A stretch of DNA of 64,000 nucleotides from a virus: the IMG/VR virus record IMGVR_UViG_3300037247_001096, positions 1-64,000 of that record; one strand, given 5' to 3'. Below are positions 1-60,002 of the stretch, one piece after another; position 1 is the stretch's first letter; each line of letters starts with the position of its first letter. The notes beneath the pieces were generated by a model that saw only the letters and a list, made by a program, of their open reading frames with translations, did not search any database and was not told where the DNA came from. The translations under genes were made by a program, and so were the position numbers.

Positions 1-7
1 GCCACTG

Positions 8-976
8 CTATCTCCCGGGCACCACTCTGGACTTGGGATGGAGTCGATACTCCACCCCCCGCTCCTGGAGGAGGTTCTCACTCTTGAGCCAGCTTTCCTG
101 AACCAGTTCACTGTACCGTGCACCCTCGTCCGCCACAACACCCTCAGCCACGGCATCGGCCACGCTGGGAATGAGCCGGGCAAGGTAGCGGGCAGCATAA
201 GAGAGGGCACGTTCTCGGATGAAAGCCTCCATGCCGGTGTCGATACTAGAGGCGCCTGTCCCTGAAGCAAGGCGGCCTTGGGTGACGGTCGCAATCGTCA
301 CTCCCACTGTATCCCCTGTGAGGCTTGAGTCGTCCTCCGTCATCTCTGCTACATTCTGAGCCCCGGGGTCGGTGAAGGTAATCTCAACCGCTGTGGGTAG
401 GGCGCCCCCTGAAGCATCCACCGACACGACGCTGGACAGCGCCTCCAGCGCGGACTTCACATCGGCAGCACTCGCATTCCAGTTGATGGCGGCTGTGGTC
501 TGGCCTCCAAAGCTCAGCGTGAAGGTGCCGCCCGTACCATCGTGGCTGACACGTTGTACCTCGTTGACGCCCGCTACGGAGGCGGTGTACTCGGTAGGCC
601 GCTGGTGCCCCACCAATTTCAGGTTGCGCCCGGCCGTAATGGTGAAGAGGTCACCATCGAAGACCAGGGCGGGTGTAGTACCTACAAGGAGGAGGCGCCA
701 CTGGTTCCGCAGGATACGCTCGTCGAACCGGCCGCCGGTCGCACTCTCCAACCATACTTCATGGATGTAGGCGAAGCTGGCCGGCACGTCGTACTCGTAG
801 GTGCTTGAGGCCAGTAGTAGGGTCTCGTCATCCAGGAGGAGAAGCCACTCCTTGCTCCGGGCGTCGTGGGACGCCGCGTTGATGAATTCTAGGAGCTGAT
901 ACGCCTGCACCCGCACCATCAGGGGGTCATGCAGGTGGTTGGCAATATCCTCTCGGATGTCGTTTACAGTACTCAC
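8..976 (-). CDS. Head-tail adaptor-like virion protein with an inserted ~115-aa EVQ/GGTFTLSFGG surface domain
   Basis: Paralogous to 981-1601 (LLxFINxA...TYxYxxPxxFAYxHEV). Insert VNEVQRV...GGTFTLSFGGQTTAAINWNASAADVKSALEAL resembles a domain seen on phage virion proteins. GAGG RBS before GTG. Confidence 0.6.
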   Translation of the reverse strand: MSTVNDIREDIANHLHDPLMVRVQAYQLLEFINAASHDARSKEWLLLLDDETLLLASSTYEYDVPASFAYIHEVWLESATGGRFDERILRNQWRLLLVGTTPALVFDGDLFTITAGRNLKLVGHQRPTEYTASVAGVNEVQRVSHDGTGGTFTLSFGGQTTAAINWNASAADVKSALEALSSVVSVDASGGALPTAVEITFTDPGAQNVAEMTEDDSSLTGDTVGVTIATVTQGRLASGTGASSIDTGMEAFIRERALSYAARYLARLIPSVADAVAEGVVADEGARYSELVQESWLKSENLLQERGVEYRLHPKSRVVPGR

Positions 977-980
977 TATC

Positions 981-1601
981 TTACCTCAGCGGCACTGGGC
1001 GTGCGTACTCTTTAGGCTGAAAGCGCTCGGGCTGCTGCCGGAGCATGAGTTCACTGGTCTGAAGGGCCTCCTGCTCGAGCTGAGCGTACTGCTGAGCGTG
1101 TTGCCCCCCGTGCCGGGAAAGGTTCCGCGCCGCGTACATCGTGGCTCGCTCGCGGATGAAGCTCTCCATCCCAGCGTCGATGTTGTCCGTACCTTCGCTG
1201 TACTCAGAGGTGGGACGGGCCTGGCCAACCAACTTGACGGAGCGGGTATCGGTAATGGTGAAAAATTCCTCGCTGAAACGGAGCTTCGCAGCGCTACTGT
1301 TATAGACAAGGCGCCAGCGATTTAGGGGGACGAGCTCGGCCTCACCGTAAGTCCCCCCAGCATTCGCCACATAGACCTCATGGAGGTAAGCGAAGCCCGA
1401 GGGTATGGTGTAGTCGTAGGTGCCGGCGGCAAGCGTCAGGCTCTCGTCCTCTTCGAGGTCGATCACCCAACCCTCATTAGCCGCATCCCACGCTGCGGAG
1501 TTGATGAACTGAAGAAGCTGCTGCCGATTGACCAGCTGGTGGGCCGCATCCTGAAGGTGGTGCGCCAATTCAGACCGCAACTCATCAACTGTCCAGGCCA
1601 T
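981..1601 (-). CDS. Head-tail adaptor-like virion protein
   Basis: N-terminal helix then L-AAGTYDYTIPSGF pattern typical of adaptor/tail-tubular-A-like proteins; lies downstream of the capsid genes. Confidence 0.6.
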   Translation of the reverse strand: MAWTVDELRSELAHHLQDAAHQLVNRQQLLQFINSAAWDAANEGWVIDLEEDESLTLAAGTYDYTIPSGFAYLHEVYVANAGGTYGEAELVPLNRWRLVYNSSAAKLRFSEEFFTITDTRSVKLVGQARPTSEYSEGTDNIDAGMESFIRERATMYAARNLSRHGGQHAQQYAQLEQEALQTSELMLRQQPERFQPKEYARPVPLR

Positions 1602-1610
1602 GGTGACCCC

Positions 1611-1997
1611 CTAGTAAAGGTAAACCAACCAGATGTCCACAGCAAACGTCTTAGTAGCGTCGGTGCCCGTGGCGGTCATCGTAACATTGATATAATCTAG
1701 CACATCCTCTGGGGACAGCGACACCACATCATCACCCGTGGCGGTGTAGGTCACGCTTGCAACAGGAGCGTCGGTGCCCGCCTCAGTCAGGAGCTTGTCG
1801 TAATCAATGAGCGTCTGCCCGTTGTCGGGGGACAGCTCCACGGAGAGTACGACATTCGTGGGGGTGCTGGCCTTTACAATCTGGATGTAGAGACTGACCC
1901 TCACAGGTGAGACACCCTCGAAGTCGTGGCTCGCAGCCTGTGACGTAGGCGAGTCGTCCAGCGTCACGTCCATTAGATGGCGTATTCTAATGGGCAC
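1611..1997 (-). CDS. Hypothetical virion protein (beta-rich)
   Basis: GGAGG RBS, GTG start, tight packing in the structural operon. Confidence 0.55.
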   Translation of the reverse strand: MPIRIRHLMDVTLDDSPTSQAASHDFEGVSPVRVSLYIQIVKASTPTNVVLSVELSPDNGQTLIDYDKLLTEAGTDAPVASVTYTATGDDVVSLSPEDVLDYINVTMTATGTDATKTFAVDIWLVYLY

Positions 1998-2007
1998 AGT
2001 TTACCTC

Positions 2008-2610
2008 CTACGTCACGCTAGGCTCAGTCGCAGCTAGCTCCTGCTCGGCCTGTCCAACAAGCTGGTCGCCCGAGCTCCCGGGCTTAGCCGCCTGCTCACG
2101 CAGGTTATCCACCAGACCCGGCGGGAAGGTCTCATCAGCGTTCATCTCACTGGCGTCAAGAAGCTTCTCACGGTTCGCCTTACGAGCTTCAAGCTCCTTA
2201 AGGGTCGCCCACCCCTTGGTCACTGGGTCGCTCGACCGACGGCAAATCTTCGAGTGCTCATCGCACCACTTGATGACCTTCGGGTCTTTCGTCACCAGGA
2301 CACCATTCGAGAACTTGGCCCACACGTCACCATCCCGGCGCACCAGGGGGACTATTCCCGACGTACTACCAGCGGGGATGGGGGCTTTGACCAACTTGCC
2401 CGCCTCTACAAGCCAGTCACTCGTAGCGTGCTCCGCCGCCGCGACAAAACCCACCAGCCCTTCCTCGATGGGGGATGCCGTCACTTCCTCTGTCTGGAGC
2501 TGTGTAGCCGCGCCTTGGCGATCCGGGAGGGCGCCTGTCACTTCACCCCGCTGTTGGGGCGTCACAACACCCGCTTCAGGGGCTCCGCTGTTGCCGTATT
2601 CGTTTACCAT
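2008..2610 (-). CDS. Hypothetical protein, structural operon
   Basis: Strong RBS (GAGGAGAGAGGA) and ATG; 200 aa. Confidence 0.6.
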   Translation of the reverse strand: MVNEYGNSGAPEAGVVTPQQRGEVTGALPDRQGAATQLQTEEVTASPIEEGLVGFVAAAEHATSDWLVEAGKLVKAPIPAGSTSGIVPLVRRDGDVWAKFSNGVLVTKDPKVIKWCDEHSKICRRSSDPVTKGWATLKELEARKANREKLLDASEMNADETFPPGLVDNLREQAAKPGSSGDQLVGQAEQELAATEPSVT

Positions 2611-2638
2611 TGTTCCTCTCCTCCTCTGAAATCACTCA

Positions 2639-2690
2639 CAAGAAGCCGGTCGGCGGAGGTGCATCGAGGAGGTGACCGGCCGGCTTCTTG
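2639..2690 (-). ncRNA. Intergenic hairpin whose loop carries two anti-Shine-Dalgarno elements (candidate antisense regulator)
   Basis: 15-bp arms CAAGAAGCCGG(T/C)CGG with one imperfect pair; minus-strand loop UCACCUCCUC-GAUGCACCUCC. Confidence 0.5.
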
Positions 2691-2718
2691 ATGAGCACAC
2701 CTTAATTAGTTCTCCAGC

Positions 2719-3516
2719 TTAACTATGCTGGAGAACCCTGTACTCCGTGATGAACGAGTACCCCTCACCGACGGTTGAGACGGTGTTGAGGGTAAGTTCA
2801 GCGTTCAAACTGTCGCCACTCTCTAGGATTTGGCTCCCAACGAACAGGGAGTTGTAATCCTGGATGGAGGCATTCTCCAGGTTTGAGGTTGTGGAGTCTA
2901 GCGTCAAGTCGCTACGCGGACGCAAGTCCGTAATGAGCGTGGCCAGAATGTCCGCAAGCACCTGGTCACTCGGGGGGCCGCTCATGTCGGCATCACGGTC
3001 GGTCGTGATGTTGGTCAGATCGTAGTACGGAAGCGAGCCGGCGAGGATGTCGTTGATAAACGTCCCCAGAATATCGGCGATTACCGCATCCGCTGGCGGG
3101 CCGCTAATGTCGGCGTCACGGTCGGTCGTGAGATTGGTGATGGTGTAGGCCGGGAAGTTCAGGCCGTAGGTCTCCAAGTCAGACACGAGCGTTCCGAGAA
3201 CGTTAGCCAGCTCCTGGTTGGCAGCGGTGTCGGCATCGAACACGCGGTCTTCCGAAGCGTTCGTCAGTGAGAACGCCTGGACTGCTGTGGTCAGTGCCGT
3301 TCCCGTCAGCAACGAGTCTAGGAACTCAATGTCGACAGTAGCTCCGGTGCCAACTACGGCCACTTCCGCCATGTATCCAATTCGCAGTACCTCGACACGG
3401 AAGTTTGCTCCCCGAGGAATGGCCAGAAGGCCAACGTTGGGGGGCCTCTCATTGGCGTCTATGTCGCCCAAAGCCGCGACTGCCAGTTGTACTCCACTCT
3501 GTGGTTCCCAAGTCAT
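2719..3516 (-). CDS. Virion (head-fibre/decoration-like) protein with three internal repeats
   Basis: Three copies of (F/Y)xxTNxxxDRxxDxxxxxxxxxAxxLxTxxxD(L/I). Confidence 0.55.
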   Translation of the reverse strand: MTWEPQSGVQLAVAALGDIDANERPPNVGLLAIPRGANFRVEVLRIGYMAEVAVVGTGATVDIEFLDSLLTGTALTTAVQAFSLTNASEDRVFDADTAANQELANVLGTLVSDLETYGLNFPAYTITNLTTDRDADISGPPADAVIADILGTFINDILAGSLPYYDLTNITTDRDADMSGPPSDQVLADILATLITDLRPRSDLTLDSTTSNLENASIQDYNSLFVGSQILESGDSLNAELTLNTVSTVGEGYSFITEYRVLQHS

Positions 3517-3588
3517 CTTCGCTACTCCTTGTTCCTATCGGTTCTACCCTTTAGGGGGGCTATTTCTGCGCCGCTCCCCGGGGGCGCC

Positions 3589-3801
3589 CTACTCGTGCGG
3601 CGGGTGGTTCCCCACCCACTCCGCAAGCGTGCTGGCTATTTCGTCTAGTAACTCTTCAAGTTCCTCCACCGTGTAGAGACCTAGGTTGTACACCCGACGT
3701 AGCTCCTGCATGGACGGTTCCTCGGGCGGTACTTGCCCCTCTGCTACAATACTGTCGGCACGGATGTAGAAGTCCAGGTGGGGGTTAACGTACCTCGGCA
3801 T
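3589..3801 (-). CDS. Hypothetical protein
   Basis: 70-aa ORF overlapping the upstream gene end, with RBS GAGGA. Confidence 0.5.
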   Translation of the reverse strand: MPRYVNPHLDFYIRADSIVAEGQVPPEEPSMQELRRVYNLGLYTVEELEELLDEIASTLAEWVGNHPPHE

Positions 3802-4123
3802 CTTCCTCTACGTCCTCCGGGCAGAACCTCTCGTACAGATCAAGCTGGACGAGGGTGAGCCTCTTCTCGGCGTTCAGCCGGCCCAACTTCTCTGTGATGA
3901 GCTTCTGGGCCGCCCTTCCGATGTCAATCTCGACAGGCCGGTCGGCGGTGGCGTTCCACATTGCCTGGCTGCCTTCCTGTCGGATGTTCAGAGCCTCCAG
4001 CTCTTCCTCCCTAAACCCTAGCTTGCCCTGGGCATCACGCACGATGCGGAGCATCGTCACGTCACCCTCGGCGCCGGCTAGCAGGTTCAGAAGCATCATC
4101 CGCTCCACTACTTTAAACTCCAC
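3785..4123 (-). CDS. Hypothetical protein, possibly a fibre-assembly chaperone
   Basis: GAGGAGGTGTATC-GTG start; small helical protein directly after a fibre-like gene. Confidence 0.5.
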   Translation of the reverse strand: MEFKVVERMMLLNLLAGAEGDVTMLRIVRDAQGKLGFREEELEALNIRQEGSQAMWNATADRPVEIDIGRAAQKLITEKLGRLNAEKRLTLVQLDLYERFCPEDVEEDAEVR

Positions 4124-4153
4124 GATACACCTCCTCTAATGCCCCCCTACCGA

Positions 4154-5236
4154 TTACCAACTATCTGTAGTGTTTCCAGCGGTGAAAATCGGGATATAAT
4201 AGTCTACCGTATCAATCAGTATTCTAATCGCCCCGTCACTGGCCGCATTGTTGGTTGCAGGCCCAACCTTGATACCAGCCGAACCGCCAGCACGAGCAAA
4301 TCGGAAGAGGTTGGTAATCAGCCCTGTTGTAGCCCCACCAATCTGGAAAGCGTGGGTTATGGAAGTCGATGCAAGCGGGTTGATATTCACCGCACAGTCA
4401 ACGGCCCCACTGGAAAACACCTTCAGCTCAATAAGGGACGAAAGGTTCGCAGCCCCAAGCGACACACTTCCGGCACCCGACCTCTGTACCAGAATGACGG
4501 AAGCATTCTGGGCAGTCAGGGTCTTGCCGGAGGCTACGTCGATACCGAACTTGCCCGCGATAGCTGCGGACGTGATAGTCAACGTCTCGGTGACGTTCAC
4601 CCCCGCGTCGATGACATGGGCGTAGCCAATGTTCTTCGACAGCTCGCATGTCAGACCCAATCCCTGGAAGTCCAGGTTGGCCTGATGCTCAGTGGACTGG
4701 GCGAACTTCAAGAACTGCCAGGCGAACAACTTACCCGAGCCCGGGTTGGTGTCATTCACCACGTTCAAGCGAATCAGGAAGTGGTAGTCTGTGACGGAGA
4801 TGGTTACCGAACCCACACCGTCACCAAACGAGAGAATGTTGTTGGAGCTCCCAGCCGCGAAGGTCGCGGCGTTAAAGTCCAAACCCTTCCCCGTTAGGGT
4901 GCCTGTCCACTTCAGGGGAACGGTCGCCATATTGAGGCGGCTGTTGCCCACGTCGAACTCGACGTACTCTGTGGTGGAGCCCAGGAAGACCTTGAGGTCG
5001 ATGTCCGTGGTGCCGTCGCCAATGTTGAATGCGCCTGCATTGTCTGTCGCAGGCAACATCTCCAAGACGGAGCCGTCCCAACGCATCACGACATCGGCGT
5101 CATCGCCGAACTTGAGCTGCTCGTTGTCGCCGAAGATGAGGTCTACGTTCTCGACGATTTGCATGTCCTCTTCCCCGGTGCCAATTTCCGGCCCCTGGGG
5201 GAAGCGTACTTTTCCTGTAATGTAATCTCTTGACAT
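4154..5236 (-). CDS. Fibre/spike-like virion protein (G/A/T/S-rich, beta-strand repeats)
   Basis: Likely start MSRDYITGK after GGGGA RBS; FGDDADVVMRWDG motif; composition typical of beta-helical fibres. Confidence 0.55.
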   Translation of the reverse strand: MSRDYITGKVRFPQGPEIGTGEEDMQIVENVDLIFGDNEQLKFGDDADVVMRWDGSVLEMLPATDNAGAFNIGDGTTDIDLKVFLGSTTEYVEFDVGNSRLNMATVPLKWTGTLTGKGLDFNAATFAAGSSNNILSFGDGVGSVTISVTDYHFLIRLNVVNDTNPGSGKLFAWQFLKFAQSTEHQANLDFQGLGLTCELSKNIGYAHVIDAGVNVTETLTITSAAIAGKFGIDVASGKTLTAQNASVILVQRSGAGSVSLGAANLSSLIELKVFSSGAVDCAVNINPLASTSITHAFQIGGATTGLITNLFRFARAGGSAGIKVGPATNNAASDGAIRILIDTVDYYIPIFTAGNTTDSW

Positions 5237-5246
5237 GTTGTTTCCC

Positions 5247-5513
5247 CTAGATACTTGTCCACGTGTCGTTCCGCTGCTGCCACAGGGTTCCTGCGCCATC
5301 CACGGCACTGATGTAGAGCGAGCCGTCTGCGTATTTGGCGTCGGCCCCTACCTCGGTAACGATTCCGGAATTCGACGTAGCTACCCCTATGAAAAGGACT
5401 ACAGGCTCACCGACATCATTCGCACCAAGCACTACCCCTCCCACGGCCCCGACACCAGTAGGTGTGAGGCCGGGGAGGTTGGCAAGGGCTCGTCCAACTG
5501 AGGTCTGACTCAT
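5247..5513 (-). CDS. Small virion protein (possible capsid decoration)
   Basis: 88 aa downstream of the MCP; GSLY...LWQ...WT C-terminal pattern. Confidence 0.45.
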   Translation of the reverse strand: MSQTSVGRALANLPGLTPTGVGAVGGVVLGANDVGEPVVLFIGVATSNSGIVTEVGADAKYADGSLYISAVDGAGTLWQQRNDTWTSI

Positions 5514-5517
5514 ATCT

Positions 5518-5949
5518 TTACGCTACTTTCGCCTGCTTGAGGGCCAAGGAGTAACCCACTCTTAAGGCTCTGTCCTCAGCAGTGATCCTATCCTGGTTAC
5601 CCGTTCGCCTACGAATTTGCGCCCGGGACTCCAAGAGAATCCACGCTTCCTGCGCCTTTGTTCGGAGGTAAGGTCTTACGGCCTCAAGCATGGTGACCGC
5701 GCGGTCACCAGTCAACTGAATACCGTACACCCTACTCCAACCAAACTTCGTCTTCCTCTCCTGTAGCACCACACCCGCCATATCCGCAACCAGCTTCATA
5801 GTCGCGTAGTGCTTCATGAAGATACCGAGGTAAGGAGTGCAACGGGCCGGCCCTGTTAGATTGAGCCTAACGCAACCCTCGCCGTCAATCAAACCAGCGA
5901 GCCAGGCCCGGTCTGTCGCACTTAGGTTTCTCACCGCAGAACCCCTCAA
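5518..5949 (-). mobile_element. Free-standing LAGLIDADG homing endonuclease
   Basis: AWLAGLIDGEG motif; PYLRTKxxxA C-terminal motif; begins 1 nt after the MCP stop. Confidence 0.85.
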
Positions 5950-5950
5950 C

Positions 5951-7153
5951 TTACGCCGTCAGGCTGAAGTTGTGGATACGAGCCTCGGCCCGAGGCCCAC
6001 TATGGATGGCGGAGACATCAGCATAGAATGCTTGCTGAATCCGAGGGCCAGTCGAGCTGGGCGGGAGCTGCCGGAGCTGTGGCCGGCCAAGCGTCCCGTG
6101 GTGACCCATCCGGTGGTTCTCCCGTCGGATGAGTAGTATCTCGTCCTGAGCCACTGCGGTGTGCAGCAAGATGTCGATGACTCCGAAGTCGGTGTTCAAA
6201 CGATCAACCGTGATGCCAGCCGTCTGGCCGGTACCCGGGCCGAGTCGCTCGGCACCGCTGAAGAACGAGCTAACCTTCCTCTTCCCCCAACCGCCGACGA
6301 TGATGGTCTTAGCCAGTTTGTCGCCGCCGACTTCGTAGAAGAGGTCTTCCAGCTCGTCGTCGATGTCACTACGGGTGAGAGCGGCACCCGCAAGGTCAGT
6401 CACCTGGGCGCCGTTGGCTGCCGTCACAAAGTCCTTGACGCCCCCCAGAAGGGAGGGAACCGAGGACGAGCCGGCAAACCGGTCACCGTGTACGAACTCC
6501 TGCTCCATGAGGACGAACTGCTCGGCTACGGTGTCCGCAGCCTGCTTGTCCAGGTCGTTCCCCTGGAGACCGTACTGCTGCGTCTCGACCATGCGGAAGG
6601 TGGCCTGCACGCCGACCGAGTGTACCTGGCTGTAGTTGAAAGGCATGGTGGTCAGACTCGTGGGCCTGAAGACCCAGTTGTCGTTCTCGTGCATCGCAAA
6701 CCCAGCCACGAACACCTCATCGGTCGAAGCCCAGGAACCTTCAGTCACACGACTGGTGATGTCGCGCTGAATGGTCAAGGCGTTGACACTTGCGTGTCCC
6801 GTCACCCGCACGAACTCGTCGTCGTTCCGGTTGTACAGAATCGTACCGACCGGGAAACGGTGAGCCGCACCAGTAACTACGAGGGTAGTGGTACCCCCAG
6901 CCGCGAGGCCGCTATGCGACAGGCGGCGGTTCCACGGGTCGTCTTCCACCCACTCGATTCGAGTGTGGGTGTACTGGAACTGTTCTACTCCACCGGTGTA
7001 CTTGAGGAAATCGGTCGAGCGCTCGCTCATGTTGACCAAGAGCGGCGCTACCCAGCGGACTCGCAGCGACGTGGTACCATCGAGCAAGAACTCCGCCGGA
7101 TAACCGCTATCCGGCATACCGGCGAAGCGCATCGTTTCTACTGTTCCTGCCAT
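5951..7153 (-). CDS. Major capsid protein (SU10/DUF5309-like, HK97 fold)
   Basis: 400 aa after the scaffold; IEWVED, NYSQV, MEQEFVHG, LLGGV and TDFGVI motifs. Confidence 0.8.
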   Translation of the reverse strand: MAGTVETMRFAGMPDSGYPAEFLLDGTTSLRVRWVAPLLVNMSERSTDFLKYTGGVEQFQYTHTRIEWVEDDPWNRRLSHSGLAAGGTTTLVVTGAAHRFPVGTILYNRNDDEFVRVTGHASVNALTIQRDITSRVTEGSWASTDEVFVAGFAMHENDNWVFRPTSLTTMPFNYSQVHSVGVQATFRMVETQQYGLQGNDLDKQAADTVAEQFVLMEQEFVHGDRFAGSSSVPSLLGGVKDFVTAANGAQVTDLAGAALTRSDIDDELEDLFYEVGGDKLAKTIIVGGWGKRKVSSFFSGAERLGPGTGQTAGITVDRLNTDFGVIDILLHTAVAQDEILLIRRENHRMGHHGTLGRPQLRQLPPSSTGPRIQQAFYADVSAIHSGPRAEARIHNFSLTA

Positions 7154-7176
7154 TTCGCTTCGCTCCTAAGTAAAAT

Positions 7177-8274
7177 CTACGCCTGTCTCACACGAACTGC
7201 ATCCCAGCTCATGCTCTTCAGGTTCTCTCTCATTGCGTCAGCGCCTGCCTCTTCAGAGAACTTCTTACCCTGGTCGACAGCACCACCCCCACCAACATCA
7301 CTCGGGGCGGAAGCCCCTGCCGGGACTCCCGGCGCGTTCGGCTGCGGCTGAGGAGCCGGAGCGGACGGAGTAGGGGTCGCTGCTACCGGCTGTGGAGCCG
7401 GTGCAGTGGCCACTTGTGGCTGGGCCGGCACTGGCGGAGGAGGCTGCACAGGGGCGACTGCCGGCTGTGCCGGGGCCTGACCCTCCTGTAGCTGCTTCTC
7501 CAAAGAAGCCGACTTCTGTTGCTCGCAGAAGAGCTCCATTTCCTCTGGAGTCTCGACTGCACCCAGGGTTTCTGGGGTCACGCCGTACTGCTTGTATTCG
7601 GCCACCAGACTGTCTACGAAGACGGTTCGGTGGTAGTTCACCAGCTCGCCTCGGTAGGAGTCTAGCTGAGCCCGTTCGTCCTGCTGAGCCCAAGTCTCCT
7701 TTGCCTTGGCTTTTTCGGCGTCCGTCAGATCACGGGTCTCAAGGTCACGAATCTGATCCGTGAGTACCTGAGACTGCGTTGTCGCCTCCTGCAACTGACG
7801 TTCGACCTGTGCATTCTGCCGGTCATGCTGGCTCTGCACAGACCTTCGCGCCTCTTCTGCCTGGTCATCAAGGAAGGTCTTTAGCCTCCCAAGAGAAGCC
7901 ACCTCTTCCTCTGGCGTTGCCTCCGGTGCACCTGCGGCTGGCGCGGTCTCCACAGGGGCCGAGGTTGTCACCGGTTGTGCCGGGGCCGCCGGCGCTGCGC
8001 CGGGAACGACCTCCACAACGGGCGGTGGCGTCGGCTCAACTACCTGTTGTGCTGCCGGCGCCGGGGGCGCTCCTGCCTGAGCTGTCGGTTGAGGTGCCGC
8101 CTCTGCTGGCTGAACCGCCGTCTCCGCTGCGGCTCCCGGCTGGGAAGCCTGCTGCGAAGGGTCGGCCTGATTCTGTGCCGTCAAAGGTCGCACTCCCTCT
8201 TTCGTCAGCTCGGCTACTTCGAGCTCTCCTAGCTTTTCTACCATTTGGGGTGTTGCTTGCGCGTCACCAGGCAT
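7177..8274 (-). CDS. Capsid scaffolding protein
   Basis: P/A/Q-rich flanks and central coiled coil, immediately upstream of the MCP. True start MPGDAQ follows GAGAGGAG; the track start at 8340 falls inside the promoter. Confidence 0.7.
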   Translation of the reverse strand: MPGDAQATPQMVEKLGELEVAELTKEGVRPLTAQNQADPSQQASQPGAAAETAVQPAEAAPQPTAQAGAPPAPAAQQVVEPTPPPVVEVVPGAAPAAPAQPVTTSAPVETAPAAGAPEATPEEEVASLGRLKTFLDDQAEEARRSVQSQHDRQNAQVERQLQEATTQSQVLTDQIRDLETRDLTDAEKAKAKETWAQQDERAQLDSYRGELVNYHRTVFVDSLVAEYKQYGVTPETLGAVETPEEMELFCEQQKSASLEKQLQEGQAPAQPAVAPVQPPPPVPAQPQVATAPAPQPVAATPTPSAPAPQPQPNAPGVPAGASAPSDVGGGGAVDQGKKFSEEAGADAMRENLKSMSWDAVRVRQA

Positions 8275-8310
8275 AAGATAGTCTCCTCTCAATTCACCTC
8301 GCGTAACTTC

Positions 8311-8340
8311 ATTATAGGGGGTCGGTGGGTAAAATGTCAA
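8311..8340 (-). promoter_or_regulatory. Sigma70-type promoter of the scaffold/capsid operon
   Basis: TTGACA-N18-TATAAT on the minus strand, preceded by AAAACCCCTGTAG. Confidence 0.8.
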
Positions 8341-8356
8341 GTGAGCTACAGGGGTT

Positions 8357-11300
8357 TTAGCGCTCTTCAGCTTCGCGCCGCAGGCGTTCCTTCACATCCG
8401 AGGCAAGGGGAGCCTCGAAATACCCCATATCCCGCCACATCTGCTGGTAGCGCTTGAGTTGCTCCTGGGCCGCCTCCGAGCGGACTGTCGTGACGAACCC
8501 CTGACGGAAGAGCTCGGCATCGAGGGCGGGACTGGCCTCCCGCATGATTTGCCTCAGCTTAGAGATACTCGGGGCATCTTCCCCAAAGGTTTGCTTGAGT
8601 GACCCATTAAGCACCTGATCGACCAAGCGAGCTACGTCGGCTGGAGAGGCCCGGCGCTCATCTTTCTGAAGCGCCTGGACGAGCTGTGACTCTAGGTCAT
8701 CTAGACTCACGCCCAACGTCACCGCAACCTCCTCACGCATACGGAAGTACCCAGAAGGCTCGACGACATCCTCGAAGCGGGTGCGCATGTGCCGGCGCAC
8801 CTCCGTCTCCCTACGTGTAAGCCACTGTTCTACGAGGGGCTGGAACTCCTCTGGTACCTGAGCCAGGGACGCATCGCGGTCGGCGAAGAACGCCTCCCAA
8901 TCGGGCACCCTAGTCTCCTTGTCCCGGTAGTCGTCAAGGTCGATATTGTAGTAGGCGTCCAGAGCGGCGTTCACAGTACCGGCGGGCGCCTCCCCCTGAT
9001 CCTCAAAGTCGACACCTAGCCCCTCGCGGAAGCCCCGAATCTCGAAATACTCAGCAGACTGAGCCTCGCCATACTGCTCCCGGTAGTCGGAGCCGGTCAT
9101 ACGACCACTTACATAGGAGTCCTCGACGCTCTGCCGTGTCTCCGCGTGAGTCCCAGCGATGCGGTCACGCCCCTCACGGTACTTCCGCCAGAACTTCTCG
9201 CGCTCGCGCTCCCGAATCGGCCGTACCCGCCCCTCAGTTACCGCCACCACATTCGGGTGGTTACGAACGAAGTCCTGAGCCGGCGCGTTGTTCTCCAAAC
9301 CCTCCCACGGCACCCCAAAGGAGTACTGAGAGACCTGGTTCATGACGGGCTCCAGAGCCTCGAACGCCGTCTCGGGTGAGGTGCGGAGCCCGAAGAACTC
9401 GGCGAGGAACCGGGTACCCTTGCGCATGTGATCTCCCTCCTGAAGGAGAGCGTCGAGGGTGATGGGAGCGAACTTGTCAAGGGCATAGTCCGCTAGTTTT
9501 CGTGGGTCGTCGACGAACTCCCAGAAGTTGACCGAATACCCCATAAAGTCCTCACCCTCAAGGAAGTCCATAAAAGTACTTGTAAGAGGGGCGGTACGGC
9601 TTCGCCACTGACGGACGATGGGGTTGTCCCATAGGGCCTGCTCCCAATTCTCGAAGTCCCAGTTGTCCTTGTTGGCTAGACCCCCAAAGAGGGCAATACC
9701 TGAACGGTAGACACCGCCTATCCCGTACCAGTCTTTACCCATCTTCATTGACATGAACTTCTTACCACTGGTCGGATTGAGGGATGTCTTGATGTCCTCG
9801 AAAACTTCGTCTTCACTCTTCCCCGTGGCGGCACCGTGAGCAGCAATCAACCCAGACATTATTGACATCCCGCCCAACATCAGCTTCGCCATCGTTGCCC
9901 GGGCCTGGGCCGGGGTGTAGCCCTTCCCCAACATATAGGACATCGTGCCAAGGAACGATCTTGTGTAGCGGGTGGCGAACCACACATAAGCGGACTCGAT
10001 CTGATGCTGCCGACTGGAGATGACCCCGCCTAGCTTCGGCTGTCCAATGAGAGTGTCGGTGAAGCGAGCCAGTCGGAACATCTCCTCGTGGAGTGCTGCG
10101 CCCGACAGAGGCCGGGCGCCGGCAGCTTTTGCCATCAATCCCGGTTTGGTCGCCACCTCTGCGAAGGAGTCGAAGGCCAACGTTCGGCCGTAGGCCAGGG
10201 AGGAGTCGAAACCAACCTGTAGTCGGTTAATGAAGGAGCGAACGGGAAATGTAGCCACATCAATAATAGGTGAGACTACAGGGGCACGCGGAAGGCCCAG
10301 GCCGCCAATACGGGCTGCCTCCATGAGCTCCGAAGTCATACCCAGGTCTCCACCATAGAGAGCGTACTGCTGAGCAGCCTTGCTGTTAGCCATCCAGCGG
10401 TAGAACTGCTTTGGTTCTACCAGCGCATTGTAGAAACCCCGCGCCATCGCCTCAGCCCAGCCCTTTGGCCCGGCCGGACTTGCGGCAAGAGTGAGGAGCT
10501 GGATGGCGCCCCACCCCGTGTCCAAGGAACCCGTCAACATCAGACGAGCGATACCATTTATCTTCTGGGGAACGGCAATCACCGGGTTCCTCGTGCCGGG
10601 GCCAATGATGGTCTCAATTGCCTGGAAGTGCTCCTTGTTCATGACCCCAATAACCTGCGAGCCTAGGTCAGTACCATAGGTCTCCGTGAGGCGCGGCCCG
10701 TGCTCACCAGCAGCGCGGAGGATACCCTCCTCACGCAGGTAGCGGGCCATGAGGGAATCACGAGTGAGCTTCTGCGCCGACTCGATGGCCCCATCCATCT
10801 GGTTCAGGACACCGGGGCGGTACTTGATACCGTACTGTTGTATGGCCTCCTGCTGCTCCTCAAAGAGGCGCTTGTGTAGCATGGGCGGCTTGCCCCGGCG
10901 AGTACCGGGGGAAACGTTCCAGAGCTTTCGCACAGGATCAACAGCGACACGGGGCCACCACACATCCTTCTTGCGGATGGACATACCCGTAGCCTGCTCC
11001 GCAAAGCTGATGTGGGGCTCCATTGCAACTCGAGCTCGCGCAACCCAGTCGACCTGCTCCTGCGTGAGCCTCCCCAGGTAGGTCTTCTCTCCCCGCATGA
11101 CACTCTCGAATACGTCTCCGACAGCAATCCACTCCCCCTCCCCCTCGCGGAAGAGGTTCCCTACGGTGCGGCGGCCGGCACCCGCTACCTTGGGCATCCA
11201 GATTTGACCGACTTCATTCTCGATGAAAGGCACCTTCGCTCCCCGGAACGGCGCCATCGTCATGAAGCGGGCCGCTGTATCTTCAGCCTGCTGGAAGTGC

Positions 11301-18902: not shown

Positions 18903-19028
18903 CTAATGGAGTAGGGCGATCAAGGCAATTACCAAGGCCGCAAGCCCGGATACGCTAGCCAATATCGTGGCCCAGGTGTTAAGCATGACCCACCGGGGAC
19001 TCCAGCCATTATCATGGTCGCTAGGCAT
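18903..19028 (-). CDS. 41-aa single-pass membrane protein (not in ORF track)
   Basis: GGAGG RBS; MPSDHDNGWSPRWVMLNTWATILASVSGLAALVIALIALLH. Confidence 0.5.
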   Translation of the reverse strand: MPSDHDNGWSPRWVMLNTWATILASVSGLAALVIALIALLH

Positions 19029-19380
19029 CGGCCTCCACCTCATTCGGGTTCTTGAAAGTAAGGAGCACCGTCTCCTCCACTAAGTCAAAGATGGGCCACA
19101 CACCCGCCACCTTTATATCCAACCCGGCCGCAATCAACTGGGCGAACCGTTCGCTCTGTGAAGTGTGGGGGCACTCGGAGCATTTCTCTTCCTTCACCAC
19201 GTGCTCATCGCAGAGAAAAAAGAAATTCACGTCCGTAGTAGGTTTGCCCGCCACCTGTTTCACTCCGAAACCAACCCACGTAGCTGGCTCGCGGCAAGGC
19301 TGACTTGAATTTGAGGGCCTAGAATGACAGATTTGTCCCTCCAACTGGTGTGCTTTAATCCAAACGCTAGATGGTTCCAT
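19021..19380 (-). CDS. Cys/His Zn-finger-like protein
   Basis: GAGGAGGTGCATC-ATG; CH...CREPATW...FLCDEH...CSEC. Confidence 0.6.
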   Translation of the reverse strand: MEPSSVWIKAHQLEGQICHSRPSNSSQPCREPATWVGFGVKQVAGKPTTDVNFFFLCDEHVVKEEKCSECPHTSQSERFAQLIAAGLDIKVAGVWPIFDLVEETVLLTFKNPNEVEADA

Positions 19381-19393
19381 GATGCACCTCCTC

Positions 19394-22923: not shown

Positions 22924-22934
22924 GGATGCACCTC

Positions 22935-23504
22935 CTAGAAGTCTATACGGCCCTTGAGCCGGCGGCCGAGCCTCCTCATTTTCTCTCGGGCTTGGCGCTG
23001 CTGGGCCGGACGGCCCGTCTGCGCGACCTTTTTCAAGTGGGGGGTCTGGAATCCTGGTTCTGGGCCGGACGGCCCCCCTCCTGGCCCACGTGTCTCCATA
23101 CGCCAACGTGTCTCCTTACGCAGCGCCCTTTGTACTCGGCGTTCGACGGGCTCCTTCTGTACCCGCACAGCCTGTTGCACCTGCAAACGTGTCAGACCCC
23201 CCAGCATAGCCCCCGTCGTCCGCAGCGCCGGATGGCCGGCACCAAGGTGGTGGGCCACCTCGTGACGGGCAGTGCCTCTTATCTCACTTGGAAGTACCAG
23301 GCGCCCCTCCTTAGTAGTAGCGAAAGTGATACTGGGGTGCGTAGAAAGAGCTATGTACCCCGGCGTCTGCTTCAGGGTAGGCCGTGTAACTGTCCCCGGC
23401 CTCTGGCGGGCCGGGAGCTCACTCAGTGCCTTGCGAGTCGCCTTCTGCGCCATGCGAACAGACTGTCGACGGGCTATTGCACGAAGTCGTTTAGCGTCAG
23501 CCAT
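22935..23504 (-). CDS. Highly basic protein with HExxHxxGxxH metzincin-type motif
   Basis: RHEVAHHLGAGH; AGGAG RBS. Confidence 0.55.
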   Translation of the reverse strand: MADAKRLRAIARRQSVRMAQKATRKALSELPARQRPGTVTRPTLKQTPGYIALSTHPSITFATTKEGRLVLPSEIRGTARHEVAHHLGAGHPALRTTGAMLGGLTRLQVQQAVRVQKEPVERRVQRALRKETRWRMETRGPGGGPSGPEPGFQTPHLKKVAQTGRPAQQRQAREKMRRLGRRLKGRIDF

Positions 23505-36371: not shown

Positions 36372-36711
36372 GAATTGCCGATACTGCGGAGGGCCGGCGG
36401 AGGAGCAGGAGCATGTGGTACCACGGTGTAACGGCGGCGATGGTGCGGCGTTTACTAATCTGGTGATGTCCTGCAAGCGCTGCAACGCCGCAAAGGGCAG
36501 GGAGGCCGGGTTCACCATGAGGAGGAGCAGATTGTACTGGCACGGGCGCCTTGTCGCCCCGAAATCCATCTTCGGCGCCGAGCTCATGCGGGAGGTGGAG
36601 GCCCAGCGCCGGGCCAGGCAGCTTGCGCAAGGACTGGGTTACCTGGTAGACTTCAAGAAGAGGAACGAGGAGAGAGTTCAGGAGGTGCATCATGACCAAC
36701 CCTATCAGTAG
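36292..36711 (+). CDS. HNH endonuclease (McrA/phage-packaging type)
   Basis: RDRNCRYCG...EHVVPR..GG.....NLVMSCKRCNAAKG. Confidence 0.8.
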   Translation: MMTRRRNRRPSPPNRRMVLKFLRLRDRNCRYCGGPAEEQEHVVPRCNGGDGAAFTNLVMSCKRCNAAKGREAGFTMRRSRLYWHGRLVAPKSIFGAELMREVEAQRRARQLAQGLGYLVDFKKRNEERVQEVHHDQPYQ

Positions 36712-41714: not shown

Positions 41715-41826
41715 AGGAGTTATCGTCATCGAGGGAGGGTCAATAGAGGAAGTAGAAGCAGTGATCTCAGCAGCGGAGAAGGCCGTTGGGAAGCTGCCAA
41801 AGGTTTCTCTAACCATCTACAACTAG
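41698..41826 (+). CDS. 42-aa hypothetical protein (not in ORF track)
   Basis: AAGGAGGCGCATC-ATG; MAGKTKGVIVIEGGSIEEVEAVISAAEKAV... Confidence 0.5.
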   Translation: MAGKTKGVIVIEGGSIEEVEAVISAAEKAVGKLPKVSLTIYN

Positions 41827-41836
41827 GAGGTGCATC

Positions 41837-59759: not shown

Positions 59760-60002
59760 ATGGAGCGATTATCTAGCCGAAAACTGGCCGGTGTTATTGC
59801 CGCCATCATGGGTGTTGTCGGGCTCCTCCTGGGCCTGGCGGTCATCCACCCCCTGGCCCTTACCGAGGCGACTGAGGTGGTGCTGACTGCCATCATTGCC
59901 GTCGCGGGCCTTGGTGGTTTTCAGGTCTATAGACAGTCTATCATCGACCGGTTCCCTGCCTACCAAGTGGGGCCAAACGAGACCGTCAAGAGGGTGAACT
60001 GA
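59760..60002 (+). CDS. Holin (two TM helices)
   Basis: LSSRKL + 2 TM + QSIID pattern. Confidence 0.7.
   Translation: MERLSSRKLAGVIAAIMGVVGLLLGLAVIHPLALTEATEVVLTAIIAVAGLGGFQVYRQSIIDRFPAYQVGPNETVKRVN

What the first reader, a model, noticed from the sequence alone, without database searches (positions are those of the whole stretch)
2639..2690. Late-operon hairpin whose loop is the exact antisense of a phage-wide extended RBS motif (candidate RNA-based translational switch)
Seen: a 15-bp-arm hairpin between two structural genes. On the transcribed (minus) strand its loop reads UCACCUCCUC-GAUGCACCUCC. The first element matches the 16S rRNA anti-SD. The second is the perfect complement of GGAGGTGCATC, which sits immediately before the start codon of four genes: 19381-19391(-), 22925-22935(-), 36681-36691(+) and 41826-41836(+, SSB). 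One- or two-base variants precede starts at 4123, 24087, 28400, 30325, 37185, 41698, 52641 (KTSC) and 58744 (endolysin). Known: bacterial sRNAs with anti-SD loops (Listeria LhrC, alphaproteobacterial CCUCCUCCC cuckoo RNAs) repress many targets. Inference: an abundant late-transcript fragment could occlude the RBS of a regulon marked by the extra CATC. Alternatively, the one imperfect pair is G-U on the plus strand, so a plus-strand RNA displaying two SD motifs as a decoy for a translational regulator is also possible.
Basis: partly seen in the sequence, partly recalled or inferred. Interest (0 to 1): 0.8.

Follow-up and report, generated by a model that had tools for sequence, protein, structure and literature searches.

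The report
Phage hairpin that mirrors ribosome-binding sites
A strongly conserved RNA hairpin at the end of the capsid genes of some uncultured marine-sediment phages shows, in its loop, two copies of the sequence ribosomes use to dock on messages, so it probably damps translation of the next gene and perhaps of other phage genes; none of this has been tested.

Summary
A 15-bp-arm hairpin, about 20 bp with an outer stem, lies at 2634-2696(-). Its 20-nt loop holds two anti-Shine-Dalgarno-like boxes. Its 3' box is the exact antisense of GGAGGTGCATC, which precedes four starts (5 copies against 0.04 expected).

It is a real RNA element, absent from Rfam. Eleven instances were found in relatives of the upstream 265-aa gene, whose proteins are down to about 40% identical. 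Their stems differ but still pair: 12 of 19 pairs show compensatory change and 0 of 500 shuffles match. GCACCUCC is kept in 11 of 11 loops. G-U counts (27 against 1) place the RNA on the late-mRNA strand, which refutes the plus-strand alternative.

The "regulon" reading is only partly supported. The sister phage G001 keeps 9-10 nt of complementarity. G002 keeps the loop but has no such ribosome-binding-site (RBS) motif. CATC tracks the start codon, not the SD.

My best reading (0.45) is a cis element that ends the capsid block and masks the next gene's SD. The 5' loop box covaries weakly with a downstream purine box (p=0.015). A trans-acting anti-SD role (0.3) remains open.

This scan has already noted anti-SD loops in other phage RNAs. 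In passing, I found that cluster K1 mycobacteriophages display the antisense of their start-associated sequence in a conserved hairpin loop.

The parts
2634..2696 (-). Whole hairpin on the late mRNA. It has a 5-bp outer stem (2692-2696 with 2634-2638), a 1-nt 5' bulge (2691), and an inner stem of 11+4 bp with one C.A mismatch.
   Evidence: Fold. Inverted repeat I7. Covariance model R1 hit at 2621-2711(-), 86.1 bits, E 2.4e-20. Pair counts.
2664..2674 (-). Loop box E1, CACCUCCUCGA. It is anti-SD-like and varies between lineages. It is complementary to the purine box downstream.
   Evidence: Alignment A4. Duplex energies, cognate against non-cognate, permutation p 0.015.
2655..2663 (-). Loop box E2, UGCACCUCC, which abuts the 3' arm. 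GCACCUCC is present in 11 of 11 instances. With the two bases 5' of it, it forms the antisense of GGAGGTGCATC (2655-2665 on the plus strand).
2615..2627 (-). Purine box AGAGGAGGAGAGG. It is the Shine-Dalgarno region of the next gene and the proposed pairing partner of E1 (GAGGAGG at 2620-2626).
   Evidence: Sequence. Duplex of -14.7 kcal/mol.
2008..2610 (-). Downstream gene of 200 aa with no family. It is conserved after the hairpin in relatives: 73% identity in G001 and 54% in G002.
2719..3516 (-). Upstream gene of 265 aa with no family. It has three DR..D repeats, and in relatives it is often the last member of a tandem paralogue array. Its model has pLDDT 86 and no PDB match.
2709..2736 (-). 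Second, small hairpin over the stop codon of the upstream gene. It is made by an insertion specific to this window.
   Evidence: I11. Alignment.
8311..8340 (-). Consensus sigma-70-type promoter, TTGACA-18-TATAAT (12 of 12). It heads the capsid block, which runs down to the hairpin.
   Evidence: SU10-type major capsid protein at 5951-7153(-).
19381..19391 (-). GGAGGTGCATC directly before the ATG of a 119-aa ORF.
22925..22935 (-). GGAGGTGCATC 1 nt before the GTG of a 146-aa ORF.
36681..36691 (+). GGAGGTGCATC directly before the ATG of a 157-aa ORF. The G001 orthologue keeps the same 18 nt.
41826..41836 (+). GGAGGTGCATC directly before the ATG of a 332-aa ORF with no family match. The orthologues have GGAGGTGCAACACA in G001 and GGAGGAAGCGCAAC in G002.

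Best explanation
It is a conserved cis-acting RNA element of the late mRNA. It marks the end of the highly expressed capsid block.

**Shown.**
- A bulged hairpin of about 20 bp forms on the sense strand.
- In relatives it starts 5-9 nt after the stop codon of the last capsid-block gene.
- Its loop of about 20 nt presents two copies of the ribosomal anti-SD core.

**Inferred.**
- The stable stem protects, or is processed to form, the 3' end of the capsid message. It has no U-tract, so transcription reads through.
- The anti-SD boxes pair with the purine-rich SD region of the next gene, 9-17 nt beyond the stem. This loop-to-tail pseudoknot competes with the 30S subunit.
- The connector and adaptor genes downstream are therefore translated less than the capsid genes.
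- Box E2 would stay identical to the rRNA anti-SD core because it must recognise whatever the ribosome recognises. That would explain why it does not vary.
For: **The element is real.**
- There are 11 instances in about 9 lineages, with one hit in each of the three searched genome-scale sequences (the window, G001 and G002), always in the same place.
- 89.1% of cells are paired, against 36-53% when the 3' partner is slid. 12 of 19 pairs show compensatory change. 0 of 500 shuffles match.
- It is a sense-strand RNA: 27 G-U cells against 1 A-C cell.

**Position.**
- It follows the SU10-type capsid block, which is headed by a 12-of-12 promoter.
- It precedes the SU10 adaptor genes.
- It has no U-tract, and no terminator is called there.

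**Cis pairing.**
- E1 pairs 6-11 bp with the downstream box in 8 of 9 lineages.
- Cognate pairs are better than non-cognate ones: -12.57 against -11.41 kcal/mol, permutation p 0.015.
- The changes are coordinated: L011 has AUCUCG with CGAGAU, L015 has AUGCCUC with GAGGCAU, and L022 has an 11-bp match, UUCCUCCUCAA with UUGAGGAGGAA.
- In L022 no start codon follows the box, so the box is kept without serving as an RBS.

**Independence from the RBS motif.** G002 keeps the loop without any extended RBS motif.
Against: - E2 shows no covariation with the downstream region (p 0.85). Its conserved GAUG/GCA part has no cis partner that I could find.
- L018 has almost no E1 pairing (-5.7 kcal/mol).
- The three closest lineages (window, G001, G002) are not independent, so p 0.015 is optimistic.
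- Any C/U-rich box will pair with any SD.
- A tail of 9-17 nt spanning a stem of about 20 bp may be sterically strained. No pseudoknot-capable folding was run.
- No transcript data exist.
- The enrichment of GGAGGTGCA at starts in two phages is left unexplained.
Confidence: 0.45

Rival explanations
1. Trans-acting anti-SD RNA. The abundant late transcript, or a hairpin cut from it by a double-strand-specific RNase (for example RNase III), pairs through E2 with early and middle phage messages that carry GGAGGUGCA(UC). It blocks their ribosome-binding sites late in infection. This could act in addition to the cis role.
For: - There is exact 11-nt complementarity to 4 starts.
- GGAGGTGCA lies before 10 ORFs of at least 50 codons in G001, read from the listing.
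- CA follows GGAGGTG at 7 of 19 called starts (p 1e-4) in G001 and at 3 of 11 (p 0.029) in G000.
- The motif-bearing starts share no wider flanking similarity, so they are not copies of one cassette.
- E2 lies on the 3' side of a large open loop, and its GCA extension has no cis explanation.
- SDs of 7 nt or more are commoner on the early strand than on the late strand: 20 of 59 against 7 of 37 genes in G000.
- There is a parallel in cluster K1 mycobacteriophages.
Against: - G002 keeps the loop with no such starts (0 of 32).
- In G001 the loop and the RBS tail differ beyond 9-10 nt.
- CATC tracks the start codon, not the SD.
- Complementarity to the loop is no better than complementarity to a generic 16S tail.
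- Two of the four exact targets lie on the late strand itself.
- The cluster K parallel fails in K6, where the SAS is kept but the loop has diverged.
Confidence: 0.3
2. Protein operator. The conserved loop is the binding site of a phage or host RNA-binding protein. One candidate is the product of a flanking gene regulating its own or its neighbour's translation.
For: - The loop sequence is invariant where no RNA partner explains it: GCACCUCC in 11 of 11 instances and GAUG in 6 of 9 lineages.
- The two boxes are a direct repeat, which would suit a dimer.
- The element always travels with the same two flanking gene families.
Against: - No RNA-binding domain was found in 10 neighbouring proteins.
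- The conserved letters are precisely the anti-SD core, which an RNA-pairing role explains more simply.
Confidence: 0.12
3. Plain 3' stabiliser or weak terminator. The loop content has no role of its own.
For: - The stem is stable and lies at the end of a highly expressed block.
- It lies close behind a stop codon.
- Its energy is unremarkable in the 111-nt context.
Against: - The loop is the best conserved part, while the stems turn over completely. That is the reverse of what a purely structural hairpin predicts.
- There is no U-tract.
Confidence: 0.08
4. A plus-strand RNA displaying two SD motifs as a decoy.
For: In this window alone the single imperfect pair is G-U on the plus strand, and the plus strand folds slightly better.
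Against: - Across 11 instances there are 27 G-U cells on the minus (sense) strand. These would be A-C mismatches on the plus strand. Only 1 cell goes the other way.
- No promoter-like site is called on the plus strand near the hairpin. The plus-strand calls in 1-9000 lie at 4173-4200 and 7147-7176.
Confidence: 0.01

Closest known systems
Cuckoo RNAs (CcsR1-4 / RSs0680, alpha-r14) of Alphaproteobacteria (PMC4615179, passages read)
   Same: The stem-loops have stems dominated by compensatory changes. The only conserved sequence is a C/U-rich anti-SD-like loop motif (CCUCCUCCC). Loops are 9-27 nt. The proposed action is occlusion of ribosome-binding sites.
   Different: Cuckoo RNAs are free-standing sRNA genes with 2-4 adjacent hairpins and one motif per loop. 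This is a single hairpin of about 20 bp inside a polycistronic phage mRNA, with two boxes in one loop (CCUCCUC and GCACCUCC). No Rfam family, ar14 included, matched at E up to 10.
Start-associated sequences (SAS) of cluster K mycobacteriophages (PMC3203893, passages read; PMC12699233 and PMC11373665, passages read)
   Same: Both are phage-specific motifs that extend the SD and abut the start codons of many non-structural genes. The function of the SAS is unknown, and Pope et al. left open an RNA or protein partner. K1 phages have one copy in the opposite orientation. I find that this copy sits in the loop of a conserved hairpin.
   Different: The SAS is 13 bp, with 11-19 near-exact copies, and is conserved across subclusters. 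Here the exact 11-mer has 4 copies in one genome, 1 RBS copy in the sister phage and none in G002. The hairpin here lies directly before a gene start. In Anaya it lies in the middle of a 385-nt gap.
C-rich-loop sRNAs of Bacillota (RNAIII, RsaE/RoxS, LhrC).
   Same: Pyrimidine motifs exposed in hairpin loops pair with SD regions.
   Different: Those are chromosomal trans-acting sRNAs with UCCC motifs and known targets. Nothing here shows a separate transcript.
Cis SD-masking structures, intercistronic stabiliser hairpins and phage T7 RNase III sites. Recalled textbook cases.
   Same: A stable intercistronic hairpin sets the ratio of expression between upstream and downstream genes. An internal anti-SD sequence hides an SD.
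   Different: In the known cases the anti-SD usually forms one arm of the hairpin. Here it sits in the loop of a very stable stem and would act through a loop-to-tail pseudoknot. RNase III cleavage is only inferred from the stem length.

Membership tests
Cuckoo RNA family (ar14 / RSs0680) | Two or more adjacent stem-loops, each with the loop motif CCUCCUCCC (PMC4615179) | tested here: not met
   There is one hairpin. Its loop boxes are CCUCCUC and GCACCUCC, and it has no second module.
Cuckoo RNA family (ar14 / RSs0680) | Match to the Rfam covariance model | tested here: not met
   cmscan of 2400-2900 at E up to 10 returned only 4 chance-level hits to unrelated families. No gathering-level hit was found in the 64 kb.
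Cuckoo RNA family (ar14 / RSs0680) | Free-standing sRNA gene with its own promoter and terminator | tested here: inconclusive
   No promoter-like site lies between the upstream stop codon and the hairpin, and there is no U-tract. No RNA data are available.
Intrinsic (rho-independent) terminator | G+C-rich stem with a short loop, followed by a U-tract | tested here: not met
   The loop is 20 nt. The tail is GUGAGUGAUUUCAG. The terminator scan does not call it. The downstream genes have no promoter of their own within 1-9000.
Structured cis-regulatory RNA under selection | Base pairs kept by compensatory change across relatives | tested here: met
   12 of 19 pairs show changes on both sides. 89.1% of cells are paired, against 36-53% when slid. 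0 of 500 shuffles match.
SD-sequestering pseudoknot (loop to downstream SD) | Covariation between a loop box and the downstream box | tested here: inconclusive
   For E1, permutation p is 0.015 over 9 lineages, with coordinated changes in L011, L015 and L022. For E2, p is 0.85. L018 pairs poorly. No pseudoknot folding or probing was done.
Trans-acting anti-SD regulator with a dedicated regulon | Loop and target motif change together in relatives | tested here: not met
   In G001 the loop is GACUGCACCUCC and the commonest RBS tail is CAAC. G002 keeps the loop, but 0 of its 32 GGAGG-led starts continue TGC.
Trans-acting anti-SD regulator with a dedicated regulon | A discrete, stable RNA species exists | not testable with these tools
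   No RNA run holds the phage.
Start-associated sequence (SAS)-like motif | An asymmetric motif beyond the SD, at a fixed distance from many start codons and rare elsewhere | tested here: met
   This holds for G000 only. ATC sits at -3..-1 in 8 of 96 genes (p 2e-5). GGAGGTGCATC has 4 copies at starts and 1 in the hairpin, against 0.04 expected. It is weaker in G001 and absent in G002.
RNase III processing site | About two helical turns of dsRNA, and cleavage observed | not testable with these tools
   The stem length of about 20 bp with a conserved 5' bulge is compatible. Cleavage is unknown.

The most novel reading that the evidence does not exclude
The hairpin is released from the abundant late capsid message and acts as a phage-encoded mimic of the 16S rRNA tail. 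Late in infection it silences the early and middle phage genes, and possibly host genes, whose ribosome-binding sites have evolved extra complementarity to its loop (GGAGGUGCA, extended to GGAGGUGCAUC in this phage).

The same design is a start-associated motif plus one antisense copy held in a conserved hairpin loop. It arose independently in cluster K1 mycobacteriophages, where it would at last give the SAS a partner.
Probability: 0.25. Interest if true: 0.85.

Novelty: new variant of a known kind. Interest (0 to 1): 0.6.

Why it matters
The element is an uncatalogued phage RNA with strong comparative support. Its conserved part is a copy of the ribosome's mRNA-docking sequence.

If the cis reading is right, it shows a compact way for a phage to set the capsid-to-connector protein ratio inside one transcript. 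An anti-SD in a loop would act through a pseudoknot.

If the trans reading is right, it would be an RNA counterpart of protein translational repressors such as T4 RegA (recalled). It would be part of a wider, still undescribed class of phage anti-SD RNAs that this scan keeps meeting.

The side observation in cluster K mycobacteriophages can be tested at once in a cultivable system with published RNA-seq. It bears on the function of SAS motifs, which the 2011, 2024 and 2025 papers I read in passages all describe as unknown or still needing experimental verification.

Tried and rejected
**Rejected readings**
- Canonical terminator: there is no U-tract, and the scan does not call the site.
- Plus-strand decoy: rejected on the G-U count.
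- Small ORF in the hairpin: only 10-16 codons, and the AUG in the loop is absent from G001, L015 and L022.
- Other partners for E2: I looked by eye at the 5' flank (AAGGUGYGC occurs only in the window, G001 and G002), at the linker, and at the early coding region of the next gene. No conserved partner appeared.
- UGCA kissing dimer: the palindrome is lost in L015 and L022.

**Searches that gave nothing**
- The phage collection has no relative. Megablast of 8 kb and tblastn of the capsid protein and of the 265-aa protein all found none.
- Rfam gave no match. No tRNA was found.
- The covariance model R1 found no copy beyond its 11 seeds in 669,039 + 284,595 bases. G000 bases 64001-73133 were searched only by a plain motif.
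- Genome contigs gave 5 distant loci without the element, so there is no host clue.
- The fold of the 265-aa protein has pLDDT 86, with no PDB match at E 0.001 or better.
- In other lineages' contigs, 0 of 22 GGAGG-led starts continue TGC. These contigs hold structural modules only, so this is uninformative.
- No RNA holder was listed for the phage. Two DNA runs from marine sediment and marine metagenomes hold it, one probably being the source.
- Literature: a search for anti-Shine-Dalgarno + bacteriophage + hairpin loop + small RNA found 1 unrelated preprint. 'start-associated sequences' + phage found 7 papers, of which I read passages in three. None mentions a hairpin at the reverse SAS copy. 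The ZoeJ paper (Dedrick 2019), which may bear on this, is not held. Supplementary files were not opened.

**Rows dropped**
- L020 and L023, near-duplicates of L011 and L015, were left out of the duplex matrix.
- SirPhilip was left out of the cluster K consensus fold because it does not align over the loop.
- Six short contigs (L010, L012, L014, L016, L017, L019) end inside or just after a following paralogue. They cannot show presence or absence of the element.

**Limits of my gene calls**
- They come from a home-made caller.
- The caller missed the longer, motif-led start (19021-19380) of the ORF below 19391, calling only a shorter GTG start at 19254.
Full report
**Setting.** The window is bases 1-64000 of a 73,133-bp IMG/VR virus record with direct terminal repeats, at 59% G+C.
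- Minus-strand genes fill 1-23,700, and plus-strand genes fill about 24,400-60,800.
- Pfam places an SU10-type major capsid protein at 5951-7153(-) and an SU10-type adaptor at 981-1601(-).
- A 12-of-12 sigma-70-type promoter (TTGACA-18-TATAAT) lies at 8340-8311(-).
- The hairpin therefore lies inside a late structural transcription unit. It sits after the capsid block and before the connector genes.
- Its immediate neighbours are a 265-aa and a 200-aa protein, neither with a family.
- No cultured relative exists in the phage collection.
- The only sequencing runs that hold the phage are DNA runs from marine sediment and marine metagenomes.

**The observation.** All the stated features are present.
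- The arms are 2639-2653 and 2676-2690, 15 nt and 93% complementary.
- Five further base pairs beyond a 1-nt bulge extend the helix to 2634-2696.
- As a 71-mer it folds at -31.3 kcal/mol on the minus strand (z -4.2) and -34.9 on the plus strand (z -5.0). In a 111-nt frame the z-scores are only -0.3 and -0.8, so energy alone would not single it out.
- The loop on the minus strand is UCACCUCCUCGAUGCACCUCCG.
- GGAGGTGCATC has five exact copies against 0.04 expected. Three abut an ATG, one lies 1 nt from a GTG, and the fifth is the hairpin on the opposite strand.
- ATC directly before the start codon is enriched: 8 of 96 called genes, p 2e-5, and 10 of 67 GGAGG-led starts.
- Pfam and PHROGs do not support the labels 'SSB' and 'endolysin' for two of the genes. 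KTSC is confirmed.

**It is a conserved RNA structure.**
- The 265-aa protein has 24 relatives in the large protein collection.
- DNA for relatives came from IMG/VR and from metagenome contigs.
- In the sister phage G001 the upstream protein is 93% identical. The hairpin is kept, five stem positions differ while the stem still pairs, and the loop is unchanged apart from a 1-nt insertion.
- In relatives whose protein is only 40-48% identical, a hairpin follows the gene, or the last member of a tandem paralogue array. Its stems are completely different and its loop is closely similar.
- In all there are 11 instances in about 9 lineages.
- A covariance model built on them finds exactly these and nothing else in about 950 kb of fetched DNA. 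It scores one hit in each of the window, G001 and G002.
- On the model alignment 89.1% of cells pair, against 36-53% when the 3' partners are slid. 12 of 19 pairs carry changes on both sides, and 0 of 500 shuffles reach any of the five measures.
- The alignment is fitted to the structure, which flatters these numbers. The independent single-sequence folds give the same architecture: an outer stem of 4-7 bp, a 1-nt 5' bulge, an inner stem of 13-16 bp and a loop of 17-26 nt.
- G-U or U-G cells number 27 on the sense strand, against one A-C cell. The folded molecule is therefore the late mRNA strand.
- No Rfam family matches.

**What is conserved.**
- The loop has two boxes.
- E2 (GCACCUCC) is present in 11 of 11 instances. 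It always abuts the 3' arm and is followed by G in 10 of 11.
- Five of the instances were found through this motif, so the count is partly circular. The model search with E up to 1 found no motif-less copies.
- The bases before E2 are GAU in six lineages, ACU in G001, GAA in L015/L023 and AAC in L022.
- E1 is usually (C)CUCCUC followed by GA. It is UCAUCUCGA in L011/L020 and UCACCCCGA in L018.
- Both boxes contain the CCUCC core of the 16S anti-SD. That identity is recalled knowledge, and the host's rRNA is unknown.
[quoted passage not shown] In the window an insertion adds a second small hairpin there.
- After the stem come 9-17 mostly A/U-rich bases, then a purine box, then the start of a conserved gene.

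I compared three genome-scale records.

| Measure | G000 (this phage) | G001 (75.6 kb) | G002 (49.4 kb, 67% complete) |
|---|---|---|---|
| CA after GGAGGTG at called starts | 3 of 11, p 0.029 | 7 of 19, p 1e-4 | 0 of 3 |
| GGAGG-led starts that continue TGC | 7 of 67 | 15 of 111 | 0 of 32 |
| Exact GGAGGTGCATC at starts | 4 | 1 | 0 |

- An extended motif, GGAGGTGCA, is therefore real in G000 and G001.
- It does not move with the loop. In G001 the loop reads GACUGCACCUCC while the commonest tail at starts is CAAC. The single exact GGAGGTGCATC copy there belongs to the orthologue of 36692.
- G002 has orthologues of 36692, 41837 and 52641, but none carries the motif. Its only GGAGGTGCATC is the hairpin itself, yet its loop keeps GAUGCACCUCC.
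- In G000 the CATC part keeps its distance to the start codon when the spacer length changes. It behaves as a start-context preference, not as part of one contiguous pairing site.
- The longest complement of each start region to the loop tracks its complement to a generic 16S tail.
- What remains in favour is this: a 9-11-nt match is much more than the anti-SD core needs, the motif is enriched in two phages, and E2's GCA has no other explanation.

**A cis reading.** I compared each loop with its own and with the other lineages' downstream regions.
- E1 pairs better with its own downstream region: mean -12.57 against -11.41 kcal/mol, permutation p 0.015 over 9 lineages.
- E2 does not (p 0.85).
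- The individual cases are more telling than the statistic:
  - Where E1 has drifted to AUCUCG (L011/L020), the downstream box is CGAGAU.
  - Where E1 reads AUGCCUC (L015/L023), the box reads GAGGCAU.
  - In L022 the match is 11 bp (UUCCUCCUCAA with UUGAGGAGGAA). There a promoter-like insertion separates the box from the next gene and no start codon follows. The box is therefore kept without being a ribosome-binding site.
- L018 is a counter-example, with almost no E1 pairing.
- In the window the pairing is CCUCCUC with GAGGAGG (2620-2626), at -14.7 kcal/mol. This lies inside the SD region of the 200-aa gene.
- The inferred mechanism has three parts:
  - The hairpin ends the high-output capsid block. 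It has no U-tract, and no promoter is called on the minus strand below 8311 within 1-9000, so transcription must read through.
  - It may stabilise the upstream message or be cleaved. Its stem of about 20 bp has the length of an RNase III substrate (recalled).
  - Its loop boxes compete with the 30S subunit for the SD of the next gene.
- Because E2 must recognise whatever the ribosome recognises, it would be frozen at the anti-SD core. That accounts for invariance without covariation, but not for the flanking GCA.

**Weighing.**
- I put 0.45 on the cis element, 0.30 on a trans-acting role (alone or in addition), 0.12 on a protein operator, 0.08 on a plain stabiliser and 0.01 on the plus-strand decoy.
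- That the element is a selected sense-strand RNA structure with a functional loop I hold at about 0.95.

**Comparison with known systems.**
- It works most like the anti-SD-loop RNAs. Cuckoo RNAs have stems full of compensatory changes and only the loop motif CCUCCUCCC conserved (PMC4615179, passages read).
- It is not a member of that family. It has one hairpin rather than two to four, different boxes, a position inside an mRNA, and no Rfam match.
- The extended start motif resembles the start-associated sequences of cluster K mycobacteriophages (PMC3203893, passages read). Their function was still called ill-defined in 2024, and in 2025 was said to need further experimental verification (PMC11373665, PMC12699233, passages read).
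- This scan's own notes list many anti-SD loops in other phage RNAs: 114 notes in at least 108 genomes. Those are unchecked AI notes on other DNA. I use them only as a pointer that the theme recurs.

**A side result.**
- In Anaya I find 16 forward copies and that one reverse copy at record position 59870-59882, in the 385-nt gap between genes 96 and 97.
- On the transcribed strand it reads CCUCCUAUCC. It forms the 10-nt loop of a hairpin with a 6-bp inner stem and a 9-11-bp outer stem (-26.7 kcal/mol, z -2.7, 1 of 200 shuffles).
- The region is conserved in 182 cluster K records.
- I aligned 9 phages. SirPhilip did not align over the loop and was dropped.
- In the remaining 8 the hairpin is kept, with compensatory changes in the outer stem and many G-U pairs on the sense strand.
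- The loop matches the anti-SAS in the five K1-type phages. It has drifted in Amohnition, Krueger and Bryler, although Krueger still carries at least 15 exact SAS copies.
- The same pattern appears as in the window: a conserved anti-SD-like loop whose extended match to the start motif holds only in one sub-lineage.
- The Adephagia paper states that late transcription begins near the right end of these genomes. That would place the hairpin in or near the late leader. I could not read the ZoeJ transcriptome paper, so I cannot say whether this has been noticed.

**Verdict.**
- The element is a new, well-supported phage RNA motif of a known general kind, anti-SD display. Its mode of action, cis or trans, is unresolved, and I favour cis.

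Noticed in passing
L143 9849-9901 (Mycobacterium phage Anaya JF704106, record 59849-59901): The single opposite-orientation copy of the cluster K start-associated sequence forms the 10-nt loop (CCUCCUAUCC) of a conserved hairpin on the transcribed strand, in the gene 96-97 gap. In 8 phages the outer stem shows compensatory changes. The loop matches the anti-SAS in 5 K1-type phages and has drifted in Amohnition, Krueger and Bryler, although Krueger keeps at least 15 exact SAS copies.
   Followed up: partly
window 2709-2736: A second small hairpin (10-13 bp arms) encloses the stop codon of the 265-aa gene. It is made by an insertion of about 13-19 nt that repeats the gene's last codons in inverted form. 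It is absent from G001.
   Followed up: no
window 8311-8340 (-): A perfect sigma-70 consensus promoter, TTGACA-18-TATAAT, lies upstream of the 365-aa gene and the SU10-type capsid gene. It suggests that host RNA polymerase transcribes the capsid block.
   Followed up: no
L013 1891-3800, L014 107-1778, L018 2942-4970, L071 4001-5900: In several relatives the 265-aa gene family occurs as two or three tandem paralogues with very short spacers. The hairpin follows only the last copy.
   Followed up: partly
L022 3990-4110: After the hairpin and its 11-bp-complementary purine box, no start codon follows. Instead there is a promoter-like TTGACT...TATACT, and the next gene starts about 125 nt further on.
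   Followed up: no
window 3589-5934 (-): Four called genes (3589-3801, 3785-4123, 4154-5236 and 5518-5934) in the stretch between the capsid gene and the 265-aa gene have no tblastn counterpart in G001 or G002. This looks like a lineage-specific insertion in the capsid block. A fifth call inside the stretch, 5247-5432, does match G001 at 90% identity.
   Followed up: no
window, all gene starts: This phage prefers (C)ATC directly before the start codon, in 8 of 96 genes. G001 (3 of 100) and G002 (2 of 61) do not share the preference. G001 instead favours CAAC.
   Followed up: partly
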